Part shown: piece by piece, positions 40,839 through 42,134 of the stretch | Numbering within the stretch: position 1 is the first letter of the stretch | Layout: every line of letters starts with the position of its first letter | Source of the DNA: Trypanosoma brucei | Lineage: Eukaryota | NCBI GenBank assembly: GCA_000002445.1 | Contig: CP000067.1 | Coordinates: 672,001 to 736,000 of the forward strand | Direction of reading: 5' to 3' | Length of the DNA stretch: 64,000 nt | Notes under the pieces: generated by a model | Seen by the model: the letters and a program-made list of their open reading frames with translations, nothing else | Databases searched by the model: none | Told to the model about the DNA's origin: nothing | Translations under genes and position numbers: made by a program

Positions 40839-42134
40839 ATGTTTCGAACGTTACCCTTGAGGTCAAGTATTCGCATGGTGGAGTGCCCGCGCGATGCGAT
40901 GCAGGGCTTACCACATTTTATCCCAACAGAACAAAAGATACGGTACCTTAAAGCTCTCCTGAAGTGTGGCTTTTATGCTCTTGATTGTGGTTCTTTTGTG
41001 TCACCGCGAGCAGTTCCTCAAATGCGTGATAGTACCGAAGTTATCGCTAACTGTTGGAAAACTATGCAAGAGGAAAAGGCAGCGCCTAAGTTGTCTGTTG
41101 TTGTTGCATCACTCGCTGGGTTTAAGCAGGCATTGGAAACTCCGGGAGTGAGTGTCATTGGGTATCCGATTGGTTGCTGCGAGCGGTTTCAGCAACGTAA
41201 TGCGAAAAAGAGCATTGCAATGTCCCTTGATGAAATTAGAAACATAAAGGAGGCCACAGATGCTTTCAATGCGCAACGAAGCTCAAACCCCGTGGCTCCC
41301 AATGAAGACGTCAATGGGAGGGAGCTTCTCATTTACATTTCTATGGCATTTGGTAATCCGTATGGCGAGTCGCACAGTATTGATTTAGTGGAAAAATTGG
41401 TAGGAGAACTTGTCGCATCGGGGGCGCGTGACATTAGTCTTGCTGACACCACTGGAGTAGCGCAACCGCCCCTCATATTTGACACCTTCACTCAATTACG
41501 GAAGAAATTCCCTGATGTAACATTTGCTGGACATTTTCACAGTAATGCGGTGGAGGCGAGAGGGAAAATTGTTGCAGCGTTGGATGCCGGTTGCACGATG
41601 ATCGACAGCGCGCTGTGTGGTATGGGCGGTTGCCCATTCGCTAAAGATGACGGTCTTGTGGGAAATGTTGCGACGGAGGTGGTGGTGAAGGCGCTTGAGG
41701 AGCGTGGCGTCCTCCCCGCTGCTCTCAATAAGGAGCAACTAAAGAAATGCGTCCTCATCAAACAGGAGATTTTTGGTGTGAGCGTGAGAGACATGTTGAT
41801 TTCACAAACACTGCACGATGAGAAGCGGTTTGCGACGTTATGCCAGGAGCACTTTAAGTTGTATGATGTTAACGACGATGGTACTTTGGATTATGAAGGA
41901 TTTAGAGATAGTATGATTCATGTCTTTGCTGAATTGGGTGCACCACAGCCATCAGAGGAGAAAATACGCAGCAGTTTCGCGAAGGTTGATATCCAAAATC
42001 TTGGGTTTATTACAATTGACGCGTACACGATGGGTGCAAGGCGCTTACTCGTCAAGAGATTGGCTTCCAACACCAACACAACAACTAAGAATGAAGAAAG
42101 GGGGGAAGGTGTCGTTGAAGCATCTTCCTGCTGA
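40839..42134 (+). CDS. HMG-CoA-lyase-like (HMGL family, DRE-TIM metallolyase) protein with a C-terminal EF-hand
   Basis: The track start 40728 is GTG and the first ATG is 40839. Key matches to HMG-CoA lyase are VECPRDAMQG (versus the RDGLQ catalytic Arg/Asp), FVSPRAVPQMRDSTEV (versus FVSPKWVPQM.D), the His-x-His metal site HFHSN, and CGMGGCPFA (versus GLGGCPYA) at about 41614-41645. A canonical 12-residue EF-loop, DVNDDGTLDYEG, lies at about 41864-41900. Confidence 0.7.
   Translation: MFRTLPLRSSIRMVECPRDAMQGLPHFIPTEQKIRYLKALLKCGFYALDCGSFVSPRAVPQMRDSTEVIANCWKTMQEEKAAPKLSVVVASLAGFKQALETPGVSVIGYPIGCCERFQQRNAKKSIAMSLDEIRNIKEATDAFNAQRSSNPVAPNEDVNGRELLIYISMAFGNPYGESHSIDLVEKLVGELVASGARDISLADTTGVAQPPLIFDTFTQLRKKFPDVTFAGHFHSNAVEARGKIVAALDAGCTMIDSALCGMGGCPFAKDDGLVGNVATEVVVKALEERGVLPAALNKEQLKKCVLIKQEIFGVSVRDMLISQTLHDEKRFATLCQEHFKLYDVNDDGTLDYEGFRDSMIHVFAELGAPQPSEEKIRSSFAKVDIQNLGFITIDAYTMGARRLLVKRLASNTNTTTKNEERGEGVVEASSC

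What the first reader, a model, noticed from the sequence alone, without database searches (positions are those of the whole stretch)
40839..42134. HMG-CoA-lyase-like catalytic core fused to a C-terminal EF-hand
All catalytic signatures of HMG-CoA lyase are present: the R-D-x-x-Q active site, the His-x-His metal site HFHSN, the CGMGGCPFA loop and FVSPRAVPQM. A canonical calcium-binding EF-loop (DVNDDGTLDYEGF, about 41864-41905) is appended in the C-terminal 90 residues, which canonical HMG-CoA lyases lack. A Ca2+-sensing module on a ketogenesis and leucine-catabolism enzyme suggests calcium regulation or a moonlighting role. Trypanosomes use leucine as a sterol precursor via HMG-CoA, so regulation here could be physiologically relevant.
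Basis: partly seen in the sequence, partly recalled or inferred. Interest (0 to 1): 0.5.

Follow-up and report, generated by a model that had tools for sequence, protein, structure and literature searches.

The report
HMG-CoA-lyase-like enzyme with degenerate EF-hands
This trypanosome gene encodes an HMG-CoA-lyase-like enzyme fused to a calcium-sensor-type (EF-hand) domain, a fusion shared by the wider group Euglenozoa, but in trypanosomes the calcium-binding residues are lost, so calcium control here is doubtful.

Summary
The ORF at 40839-42134 (+) is real.

The N-terminal 300 residues form an HMGL-like TIM barrel. It keeps all four Mg2+ ligands and the catalytic Arg, Tyr and Cys; only the human Glu72 position differs, as Asp.

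The C-terminal ~120 residues are a genuine EF-hand pair by sequence profile and predicted fold. The fusion occurs in trypanosomes, bodonids, a prokinetoplastid, diplonemids and euglenids.

The loop is not canonical. Position 12 of DVNDDGTLDYEG is Gly, and the Glu sits at position 11. Loop 2 has Leu at 5 and Ala at 12. Neither loop matches PROSITE PS00018. No Trypanosoma-type sequence (0 of 10) keeps a complete ligand set, against 26 of 29 other Euglenozoa. Within Trypanosoma the EF domain is nevertheless more conserved than the barrel.

The most likely reading is an ancestral Ca2+-sensing module kept in trypanosomes as a structural or regulatory domain. The catalytic domain belongs to a Bacteroidota-like subfamily that scores below NCBI's HMG-CoA lyase cut-off, and published labelling data argue against lyase flux in procyclic forms. 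No paper found describes this fusion.

The parts
40839..42134 (+). Complete CDS, 431 codons plus TGA. It corresponds to T. brucei-group Tb927.4.2700, 'hydroxymethylglutaryl-CoA lyase, mitochondrial, putative'.
   Evidence: Searches give the ORF and translation. One search gives a 100% identical protein, P0001. (PMC5993337) gives the gene ID for the T. brucei putative mitochondrial HMG-CoA lyase. The ATG at 40839 agrees with the orthologue N-termini. The in-frame upstream stretch 40728-40838 is pyrimidine-rich and non-coding-like.
40839..40871 (+). Short N-terminal leader (residues 1-11, MFRTLPLRSSI) before barrel strand beta-1. It is probably a short trypanosomatid-type mitochondrial presequence (inferred).
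   Evidence: The AF2 model starts beta-1 at residue 12, and the first 10-residue block has mean pLDDT 64. Papers describe the protein as putative or predicted mitochondrial. Targeting was not tested here.
40872..41771 (+). HMGL-like (DRE-TIM metallolyase) TIM-barrel catalytic domain, residues 12-311.
   Evidence: Pfam PF00682 scores 90 bits against a cut-off of 29. PDB HMG-CoA lyases match at E = 1e-27 to 1e-29. Foldseek gives TM 0.84-0.89 (normalised to the target) against 1ydo, 1ydn, 6nds, 2cw6 and 2ftp.
40890..40904 (+). R18-D19-A-M-Q22, equivalent to human R41 (catalytic), D42 (Mg2+ ligand) and Q45.
   Evidence: Invariant in 39 Euglenozoan and 52 Bacteroidota-like sequences.
40983..40985 (+). 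D49, at the position of human catalytic Glu72. Asp is the subfamily signature.
   Evidence: Asp in 39 of 39 Euglenozoa and 51 of 52 Bacteroidota-like proteins; Glu in the human, B. subtilis and P. aeruginosa enzymes.
40995..41024 (+). FVSPRAVPQM motif, aligned with the human FVSPKWVPQM segment that follows beta-2.
41274..41321 (+). Trypanosoma-specific insertion of about 16-18 residues (146-161) between a barrel helix and the next strand.
   Evidence: present in the 10 Trypanosoma-type sequences and absent in the other Euglenozoa and Bacteroidota-like proteins shown. The 151-160 block has mean pLDDT 72.
41532..41546 (+). H232-F-H234-S-N, the His-x-His Mg2+ ligands (human H233 and H235).
   Evidence: Invariant.
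41616..41666 (+). Gly-rich catalytic loop CGMGGCPFA containing C265 (human C266), through to N276 (human N275, Mg2+ ligand).
   Evidence: Invariant.
41772..41819 (+). Linker (residues 312-327, FGVSVRDMLISQTLHD), which contains helix 316-326 and joins the barrel to the EF-hand pair. It is the most conserved segment within Trypanosoma.
   Evidence: helix 316-326. (82.9% mean identity within Trypanosoma, against 64.6% for the barrel); full-profile matches that include this segment occur only in proteins of fusion size or in fragments.
41820..41933 (+). EF-hand 1: helix 328-342, loop 343-354 (window 41865-41900, DVNDDGTLDYEG) and helix 352-365. Ligand positions 1, 3, 5 and 9 are intact, but position 12 is Gly.
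   Evidence: beta bridge at 349-350.
41955..42053 (+). EF-hand 2: helix 373-383, loop 384-395 (window 41988-42023, DIQNLGFITIDA) and the start (residues 393-405) of helix 393-423, which runs on into the tail. The loop is degenerate, with Gln3, Leu5 and Ala12.
   Evidence: and (beta bridge at 391-392). Leu5 and Ala12 are present in all 10 Trypanosoma-type sequences.
42054..42131 (+). Poorly conserved C-terminal tail (residues 406-431). The last ~10-20 residues have low model confidence, and there is no PTS1-like end.
   Evidence: mean pLDDT falls from 70 (residues 411-420) to 47 (421-430); 25.7% identity within Trypanosoma.

Best explanation
The gene encodes the trypanosome member (Tb927.4.2700) of a Euglenozoa-wide fusion protein. 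The fusion joins an HMG-CoA-lyase-like DRE-TIM metallolyase barrel, through a conserved linker containing a short helix, to a C-terminal EF-hand pair.

Shown here:
- The barrel keeps the full Mg2+ site and the catalytic Arg, Tyr and Cys of HMG-CoA lyase.
- The C-terminal domain is a true EF-hand pair by homology and predicted fold.
- The fusion predates the split of kinetoplastids, diplonemids and euglenids.
- Most non-trypanosome members keep one complete Ca2+-ligand set.
- All Trypanosoma-type members have lost it. Loop 1 has Glu12 replaced by Gly, Asp or Cys, with variable positions 3 and 5. Loop 2 has Leu5 and Ala12.
- The domain is nevertheless more conserved than the barrel within Trypanosoma.

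Inferred:
- In the ancestor, and in free-living relatives, the EF-hand pair made the enzyme responsive to (probably mitochondrial-matrix) Ca2+.
- In Trypanosoma the module has been kept as a Ca2+-independent, or at best very low-affinity, structural or regulatory domain packed on the barrel. It plausibly takes the place of the extra-barrel C-terminal helices that form the dimer interface in canonical HMG-CoA lyase.
- The chemistry is most likely retro-Claisen cleavage of HMG-CoA, or of a closely related 3-hydroxy-3-alkylglutaryl-CoA, to acetyl-CoA plus a ketoacid.
For: Identity of the gene: 100% match to P0001; gene ID and the 'putative mitochondrial' annotation come.

Catalytic domain:
- PF00682 scores 90 bits.
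- PDB HMG-CoA lyases match at about 1e-28.
- Foldseek gives TM 0.84-0.89 to five solved HMG-CoA lyases.
- R41, D42, Q45, Y167, D204, T205, H233, H235, C266 and N275 are all conserved, and invariant across 91 subfamily sequences. The list of critical residues comes from PMC6941031.

EF-hand homology and fold:
- 35 of 36 orthologous C-terminal domains hit EF-hand_7.
- The domain profile hits calmodulin at about 1e-11.
- The full-length AF2 model has pLDDT 91.2 and pTM 0.85, with pLDDT 95-97 in the EF-hand blocks.
- The isolated domain model matches NCS-1, the calmodulin N-lobe, centrin and ALG-2.

Taxonomic spread: Trypanosoma, Bodo, Papus, five diplonemids and two euglenids.

Ligand loss:
- No PS00018 match in the query or in any of the 10 Trypanosoma-type sequences, against 20 of 29 others.
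- D1/[DNST]3/[DNST]5/E12 in at least one loop: 0 of 10 against 26 of 29.

Purifying selection on the domain: within Trypanosoma the linker is 82.9% identical, the EF pair 72.5% and loop 2 76.5%, against 64.6% for the barrel.
Against: - No Ca2+-binding measurement exists. Loop 1 of T. brucei still has D1, N3, D5, G6, L8 and D9, plus a Glu at position 11, so weak or atypical Ca2+ or Mg2+ binding cannot be excluded.
- The relative placement of the EF domain on the barrel rests on one AF2 model whose coordinates I could not inspect. The 'replaces the dimerisation helices' idea is therefore inference.
- Substrate identity is not established. The whole subfamily scores 181-215 bits against NCBIfam HMG-CoA lyase NF004283, whose cut-off is 246.
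- The subfamily has Asp instead of Glu72.
- 13C-labelling in procyclic T. brucei suggested no HMG-CoA lyase activity, although the protein is in the procyclic proteome.
- The 0 of 10 against 26 of 29 contrast reflects one clade, so it may be a single evolutionary event rather than ten independent ones.
Confidence: 0.6

Rival explanations
1. One reading: the T. brucei EF-hand is a working Ca2+ sensor that switches HMG-CoA lyase activity in response to mitochondrial Ca2+. This would tune the split of leucine-derived HMG-CoA between sterol synthesis and acetyl-CoA plus acetoacetate.
For: - Loop 1 keeps five of the six usual positions (D1, N3, D5, G6 and D9, with the T7 backbone) and has Glu at position 11.
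- The domain is strongly conserved in Trypanosoma.
- Relatives have canonical loops.
- EF-hand_7 has E about 1e-6.
Against: - Position 12, the bidentate -Z ligand, is Gly. In established EF-hand biochemistry, Glu12 substitutions are the standard way to inactivate a site (my own knowledge of the family, not tested here).
- PS00018 fails.
- Positions 3, 5, 9 and 12 vary among Trypanosoma species (for example T. vivax E3/K5/G12 and T. congolense T5/G9/G12). That is not expected if Ca2+ coordination were under selection.
- Loop 2 lacks ligands (L5, A12).
- Labelling data argue against lyase flux in procyclic forms.
Confidence: 0.2
2. The enzyme is not an HMG-CoA lyase in vivo. It belongs to a separate Bacteroidota/Euglenozoa subfamily of DRE-TIM lyases with a different acyl-CoA or 2-oxoacid substrate, and the database name is a transfer by similarity. 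This rival concerns the catalytic half and is compatible with either reading of the EF-hand.
For: - The query is only 31-35% identical to characterised HMG-CoA lyases, against 44-47% to the Bacteroidota-like group.
- The whole subfamily is below the NCBIfam NF004283 cut-off.
- The subfamily-wide change of Glu72 to Asp, and differences around the RD motif (ECPRDAMQG against VGPRDGLQN).
- Millerioux et al. infer absence of HMG-CoA lyase activity in procyclic T. brucei.
- Bacterial neighbourhoods show no leucine-catabolism operon.
Against: - Every residue listed as critical for human HMG-CoA lyase is retained, apart from the conservative Glu-to-Asp change.
- The best sequence and structure matches are all HMG-CoA lyases, far ahead of homocitrate, isopropylmalate and citramalate synthases.
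[quoted passage not shown] One search lists Tb927.4.2700 as having no Herpetomonas orthologue.
- One Bacteroidota locus has an acyl-CoA dehydrogenase two genes away.
Confidence: 0.2
3. The EF-hand resemblance is a chance match in a generic helical C-terminal extension.
For: The full-length Pfam EF-hand_7 score of 27.1 is below the 30-bit gathering cut-off, and the single-EF-hand models are also below cut-off.
Against: - 35 of 36 orthologues hit EF-hand_7, the best at E = 1e-12.
- The family profile hits hundreds of PDB EF-hand proteins.
- The predicted fold matches calmodulin lobes at TM 0.71-0.81, normalised to the target.
- Orthologues carry textbook loops such as DVNGDGKLSREEF and DLNHDNRITFDEF.
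Confidence: 0.02

Closest known systems
Canonical HMG-CoA lyase (human HMGCL and HMGCLL1; bacterial YngG, MvaB and LiuE; PDB 2cw6, 1ydo, 2ftp, 1ydn, 6nds)
   Same: Same HMGL-like TIM barrel. Identical Mg2+ ligands (D, H-x-H, N), catalytic Arg, Tyr and the Cys in the Gly-rich loop. Structural TM 0.84-0.89.
   Different: Only 31-35% identical and below the NCBIfam HMG-CoA lyase cut-off. Asp replaces Glu72. The canonical enzymes end about 30 residues after the barrel, with helices that form the dimer interface, and have no EF-hand. This protein instead has a linker plus an EF-hand pair of about 120 residues.
Bacteroidota proteins of about 285 aa annotated 'hydroxymethylglutaryl-CoA lyase' (for example P0041, P0062, P0082)
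   Same: These are the closest relatives of the catalytic domain, at 44-47% identity. They share the subfamily signatures ECPRDAMQG and Asp at the Glu72 position, and they score similarly below the NCBIfam cut-off.
   Different: They have no C-terminal EF-hand pair and end shortly after the barrel. The branching order relative to Euglenozoa is unresolved: Euglenozoa were monophyletic in 15 of 50 NJ bootstraps. A bacterial origin by transfer is therefore possible but not shown.
Orthologous HMGL-like/EF-hand fusions of free-living Euglenozoa (Bodo saltans P0015, Papus P0027, Flectonema P0030, Ploeotia P0040 and others)
   Same: Same architecture, linker and domain boundaries. They are 37-50% identical overall.
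   Different: They keep at least one loop with D1, [DNST]3, [DNST]5 and E12 (26 of 29), so they are credible Ca2+ binders. The T. brucei protein and all Trypanosoma-type sequences do not. They also lack the Trypanosoma-specific barrel insertion.
Ilborin (sponge and other marine-invertebrate larval protein; PMC8864356)
   Same: An analogous architecture: an aldolase-type TIM barrel remotely similar to homocitrate synthase and HMG-CoA lyase, with the His-x-His metal site, followed by a C-terminal EF-hand domain.
   Different: Its barrel has no significant Pfam hit and has Glu at the metal position. It is a metazoan family with a much longer protein (EF-hand at about residues 458-540). It is very likely an independent fusion. 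Homology to the Euglenozoan fusion was not tested here.
Degenerate (non-Ca2+-binding) EF-hand pairs kept as structural modules, such as the inactive EF-hands of recoverin/NCS proteins and KChIPs (from my own knowledge)
   Same: The EF-hand fold and hydrophobic core are retained, ligand positions are substituted, and the domain is conserved for packing or partner binding.
   Different: Those are stand-alone sensors or subunits. Here the pair is fused covalently to a metabolic enzyme.

Membership tests
HMG-CoA lyase (EC 4.1.3.4) / HMGL-like DRE-TIM metallolyases | Pfam PF00682 HMGL-like domain above the gathering threshold | tested here: met
   90 bits against a cut-off of 29, residues 17-301.
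HMG-CoA lyase (EC 4.1.3.4) / HMGL-like DRE-TIM metallolyases | Curated HMG-CoA lyase model NCBIfam NF004283 above its cut-off | tested here: not met
   181.1 bits against a cut-off of 246. Bacteroidota and other Euglenozoan subfamily members also fail, at 195-215 bits.
HMG-CoA lyase (EC 4.1.3.4) / HMGL-like DRE-TIM metallolyases | Mg2+ ligands Asp42, His233, His235 and Asn275 (human numbering; list from PMC6941031) | tested here: met
   D19, H232, H234 and N276, invariant in 91 subfamily sequences.
HMG-CoA lyase (EC 4.1.3.4) / HMGL-like DRE-TIM metallolyases | Catalytic residues Arg41, Glu72, Tyr167 and Cys266 | tested here: inconclusive
   R18, Y166 and C265 are identical. The Glu72 position is Asp49 throughout the subfamily. 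This is a conservative change whose effect is unknown.
HMG-CoA lyase (EC 4.1.3.4) / HMGL-like DRE-TIM metallolyases | TIM-barrel fold closest to solved HMG-CoA lyases | tested here: met
   Foldseek ranks 1-14 are all HMG-CoA lyases, with E = 1e-17 to 1e-21 and TM 0.83-0.89 normalised to the target.
HMG-CoA lyase (EC 4.1.3.4) / HMGL-like DRE-TIM metallolyases | Cleavage of HMG-CoA to acetyl-CoA plus acetoacetate | not testable with these tools
The literature infers absence of this flux in procyclic T. brucei, although the protein is in the procyclic proteome.
EF-hand Ca2+-binding domain pair | Pfam EF-hand_7 (PF13499) above the gathering threshold | tested here: inconclusive
   27.1 bits for the full-length protein, and 29.8 and 30.1 bits for two excised C-terminal fragments, against a cut-off of 30. 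35 of 36 orthologous domains hit at E < 0.01.
EF-hand Ca2+-binding domain pair | Homology to known EF-hand proteins at profile level | tested here: met
   The profile of 36 C-terminal domains against PDB hits radial spoke protein 7 at 1e-19 and calmodulins at about 1e-11, with 385 hits at E <= 1e-3.
EF-hand Ca2+-binding domain pair | Two helix-loop-helix units paired through a short beta bridge (EF-hand pair fold) | tested here: met
   AF2 gives helices 328-342, 352-365, 373-383 and 393-423, with bridges at 349-350 and 391-392. Foldseek on the isolated domain hits NCS-1, the calmodulin N-lobe (TM 0.71-0.81 normalised to the target), centrin and ALG-2.
EF-hand Ca2+-binding domain pair | Canonical 12-residue loop with oxygen ligands at positions 1, 3, 5 and Glu/Asp at 12 (PROSITE PS00018) | tested here: not met
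   No PS00018 match. Loop 1 has Gly at position 12; loop 2 has Leu at 5 and Ala at 12. 0 of 10 Trypanosoma-type sequences qualify, against 26 of 29 other Euglenozoa.
EF-hand Ca2+-binding domain pair | Measured Ca2+ binding | not testable with these tools
   Requires ITC, 45Ca overlay or spectroscopy on recombinant protein.
Ilborin family | Sequence homology of the barrel and EF-hand domain to metazoan ilborins | not tested
   Only the published description was read.

The most novel reading that the evidence does not exclude
Euglenozoa possess a previously undescribed class of Ca2+-gated HMG-CoA-lyase-type enzymes. The barrel may have been acquired from Bacteroidota and was fused early to an EF-hand pair that keeps one working Ca2+ site. 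This would link mitochondrial Ca2+ signals to the fate of leucine-derived HMG-CoA (ketoacid and acetyl-CoA versus sterol synthesis). The genus Trypanosoma then disabled the sensor but kept the domain, an example of a regulatory module turned into a structural one during the move to parasitism.
Probability: 0.3. Interest if true: 0.55.

Novelty: new variant of a known kind. Interest (0 to 1): 0.4.

Why it matters
If the EF-hand pair of the free-living orthologues really binds Ca2+, this would be the first Ca2+-regulated HMG-CoA-lyase-type enzyme. It would be a new node linking mitochondrial Ca2+ to branched-chain amino-acid and sterol-precursor metabolism in Euglenozoa.

For T. brucei the practical message is more sober. 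The gene is annotated as an HMG-CoA lyase, yet it sits in a divergent subfamily, carries an extra domain absent from the host enzyme, and labelling data suggest no lyase flux in procyclic forms. Its true activity, and the role of the conserved but ligand-poor EF-hand domain, are open and easy to test.

The case also shows that 'EF-hand present' in domain databases does not mean 'Ca2+-regulated'.

Tried and rejected
- **Bacterial gene neighbourhoods.** I looked at three Bacteroidota homologues to infer substrate. There is no conserved operon. One locus has an acyl-CoA dehydrogenase nearby and another a thioesterase and an acyltransferase. This was uninformative.
- **NJ tree with bootstraps.** The aim was to decide whether Euglenozoa nest inside Bacteroidota, which would indicate horizontal transfer (timed out; completed). 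The result is unresolved: Euglenozoa were monophyletic in 15 of 50 bootstraps and the Bacteroidota-like group in 26 of 50.
- **The search for homologous proteins with the C-terminal domain alignment A4.** It returned no hits at E <= 1e-6, not even family members. I treated this as a failed search, not as evidence.
- **Exhaustive representative search with the C-terminal profile.** The top 150 are swamped by long proteins with many EF-hand repeats. It showed only that single-stretch matches starting at profile position 1 (spanning to positions 98-102 of the 105) occur in proteins of fusion size or in short fragments. It did not give a count or the taxonomic range of fusions.
- **afdb50 fold search for the full architecture.** The library was unavailable.
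- **Chance match.** I rejected the idea that the EF-hand is a chance match.
- **ORF start.** I rejected the idea that the ORF begins at the upstream GTG at 40728. That stretch is pyrimidine-rich and orthologues start at the ATG.
- **Literature searches for a description of this fusion.** None was found. The only analogous case found was ilborin.
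Full report
**1. What is in the sequence**

The window carries an uninterrupted ORF on the + strand from the ATG at 40839 to the stop at 42132-42134, giving 431 aa. A longer reading from a GTG at 40728 adds only a pyrimidine-rich, non-coding-looking stretch, and orthologues begin at the ATG.

The protein is 100% identical to a database entry named 'Hydroxymethylglutaryl-CoA lyase, mitochondrial, putative' from the T. brucei group. [quoted passage not shown] It is also predicted to be mitochondrial in an earlier study, and it is down-regulated on cardiolipin depletion in bloodstream forms.

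| Motif | Window coordinates |
|---|---|
| RDAMQ | 40890-40904 |
| FVSPRAVPQM | 40995-41024 |
| HFHSN | 41532-41546 |
| CGMGGCPFA | 41616-41642 |
| DVNDDGTLDYEGF | 41865-41903 |

**2. The catalytic half**

- Pfam HMGL-like scores 90 bits against a cut-off of 29.
- The best PDB sequence matches are the B. subtilis, human, P. aeruginosa and Brucella HMG-CoA lyases, at E = 1e-27 to 1e-29.
- An AlphaFold2 model built from a 90-sequence alignment is confident, with pLDDT 91.2 and pTM 0.85.
- Its first 14 Foldseek matches in the PDB are all HMG-CoA lyases, with TM 0.83-0.89 and 25-30% identity.

I mapped the residues listed as critical for the human enzyme (Arg41, Glu72, Tyr167, Cys266; Mg2+ ligands Asp42, His233, His235, Asn275; PMC6941031). 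R18, D19, Y166, H232, H234, C265 and N276 are identical, and they are invariant across 39 Euglenozoan and 52 Bacteroidota-like homologues. The one exception is the Glu72 position, which is Asp49 in essentially the whole subfamily. The description 'HMG-CoA-lyase-like catalytic core' is therefore correct, with that one qualifier.

**3. It is a distinct subfamily**

- The barrel is 31-35% identical to characterised HMG-CoA lyases, but 44-47% identical to a large set of Bacteroidota proteins of about 285 aa.
- The query (181 bits), other Euglenozoan members and the Bacteroidota proteins (195-215 bits) all fall below the 246-bit cut-off of NCBI's curated HMG-CoA lyase model.
- A bootstrapped NJ tree could not resolve whether Euglenozoa branch inside the Bacteroidota group.
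- Bacterial gene neighbourhoods gave no pathway clue.
- Millerioux et al. conclude from 13C labelling that procyclic T. brucei shows no HMG-CoA lyase flux, although the genome encodes this protein and it was detected in the procyclic proteome.
- A metabolic reconstruction says HMG-CoA lyase acts in the African trypanosomes, Paratrypanosoma confusum and Bodo saltans, while Leishmaniinae and Blastocrithidia nonstop lack the gene. Another study lists Tb927.4.2700 as having no Herpetomonas orthologue.

The substrate assignment is thus likely but not proven.

**4. The C-terminal half is a real EF-hand pair**

- Residues 312-431 are absent from canonical lyases. The human chain ends about 30 residues after the barrel.
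- On the T. brucei sequence, Pfam EF-hand_7 gives E = 5e-6 to 6e-7. The bit score straddles the 30-bit cut-off, at 27.1, 29.8 or 30.1 depending on how the fragment is cut.
- At family level the case is clear. 35 of 36 orthologous C-terminal domains hit EF-hand_7, the best at 1e-12.
- A profile of these domains hits calmodulins at about 1e-11 and radial spoke protein 7 at 1e-19 in the PDB.
- The AF2 models show helices 328-342, 352-365, 373-383 and 393-423, with the diagnostic beta bridge between the two loops at 349-350 and 391-392.
- The isolated-domain model matches NCS-1, calmodulin N-lobes (TM up to 0.81 normalised to the target), centrin and ALG-2.

**5. The loops are not canonical in T. 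brucei**

Numbering from D343, loop 1 reads D1 V N3 D D5 G6 T L8 D9 Y E11 G12, followed by the invariant F13. The -Z position, which in working EF-hands is Glu (rarely Asp) and supplies two of the seven Ca2+ oxygens, is Gly here. The Glu sits one residue early. The role of Glu12 is established EF-hand knowledge and was not tested here.

Comparison with orthologues such as Bodo (…ELDEF) and Flectonema (…SREEF) suggests a substitution at position 12 rather than a register shift, because F13 is invariant and an acidic residue at position 11 is common in the family.

Loop 2 (DIQNLGFITIDA) has Gln3, Leu5 and Ala12. PROSITE PS00018 matches nowhere in the protein.

**6. Comparative picture**

The fusion is present in Trypanosoma species, Bodo saltans, the prokinetoplastid Papus, five diplonemid genera and two euglenids, plus many unassigned environmental sequences. 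It is therefore ancestral to Euglenozoa.

| Measure | Trypanosoma-type sequences (10) | Other Euglenozoa (29) |
|---|---|---|
| PS00018 match in either loop | 0 | 20 |
| D1/[DNST]3/[DNST]5/E12 in at least one loop | 0 | 26 |

- The other Euglenozoa usually keep only one good loop, and which loop it is differs by lineage. Under a slightly relaxed ligand rule only 2 of 29 qualify in both loops.
- Among Trypanosoma species the loop-1 ligand positions drift. Position 3 is N, D or E; position 5 is D, T, K, N, R or S; position 12 is G, D or C.
- The domain as a whole is nevertheless under tighter constraint than the barrel.

| Region | Mean identity within Trypanosoma |
|---|---|
| Linker (312-327) | 82.9% |
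| EF pair (328-405) | 72.5% |
| Loop 2 (384-395) | 76.5% |
| Barrel (14-311) | 64.6% |

Because the Trypanosoma sequences form one clade, this is best read as one ancestral loss of Ca2+ coordination followed by retention of the domain.

**7. Most likely mechanism**

This part is inference.

In the euglenozoan ancestor and its free-living descendants, the EF-hand pair gave the lyase one Ca2+ site and hence Ca2+ responsiveness. The site of action is probably the mitochondrial matrix, given the N-terminal leaders and the mitochondrial assignment of the T. brucei protein.

In Trypanosoma the sensor function was lost or greatly weakened. The domain was kept because it packs against the barrel, as suggested by the high pTM and the high pLDDT of the EF region, and contributes to folding, oligomerisation or control of the active-site loop. 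It occupies the place where canonical HMG-CoA lyases carry the extra-barrel helices that form the dimer interface. I could not inspect the model coordinates, so the contact surface is not established.

I give this reading 0.6. A still-functional atypical Ca2+ or Mg2+ site in T. brucei gets 0.2. Separately, a non-HMG-CoA substrate gets 0.2.

**8. Relation to what is known, and novelty**

The gene, its lyase annotation and the Pfam EF-hand hit are already in public databases. The precomputed domains list PF13499, and one orthologue is even named 'EF-hand domain'.

I found no paper that mentions the EF-hand on this enzyme, or any Ca2+-regulated HMG-CoA lyase. The nearest published analogue is ilborin, a metazoan protein with a TIM barrel and an EF-hand whose barrel is only remotely lyase-like.

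I class the finding as a new variant of a known kind: an HMG-CoA-lyase-type enzyme with a lineage-specific EF-hand pair. Interest is moderate (0.4).

Noticed in passing
window 41274-41321 (residues 146-161): A Trypanosoma-specific insertion of about 16-18 residues in the barrel (AQRSSNPVAPNEDVNG in T. brucei). It is absent from the other Euglenozoa and Bacteroidota homologues shown, is poorly conserved in sequence, and has lower model confidence.
   Followed up: partly
L007:861-3299 (metagenome contig Ga0613707_028686): Tandem same-strand pair: an EF-hand-fused HMGL-like gene (P0031, 433 aa, canonical loop 2) followed by an EF-hand-less paralogue of the same subfamily (334 aa, 53% identical). 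At least one protist therefore keeps both forms.
   Followed up: partly
Alignment A1, loop columns (query residues 343-355 and 384-396): Outside Trypanosoma, usually only one of the two EF loops is canonical, and which one differs by lineage. It is loop 1 in Bodo-like sequences and most diplonemids, and loop 2 in Papus, Ploeotia and several environmental clades. Both loops qualify in only 2 of 29 sequences.
   Followed up: partly
P0015 (Bodo saltans protein), residues ~95-125: The database sequence contains an exact internal repeat (YHTVDFGSFVSAPAVPQ twice) and lacks three residues in loop 2 relative to the near-identical P0012. This looks like an assembly or gene-model artefact.
   Followed up: no
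window 1-64000: 17 of the 18 ORFs of at least 250 aa lie on the + strand, and the single minus-strand one overlaps a longer + strand ORF. Intergenic stretches are pyrimidine-rich (for example 40728-40838). This fits one trypanosomatid polycistronic transcription unit.
   Followed up: no
Subfamily level (P0041-P0120 and the Euglenozoan proteins): The Bacteroidota proteins named 'hydroxymethylglutaryl-CoA lyase' by their sources score 195-211 bits against NCBIfam NF004283, below its 246-bit cut-off. Nearly all carry Asp at the Glu72 position. Their annotation as HMG-CoA lyases may itself rest on similarity only.
   Followed up: partly
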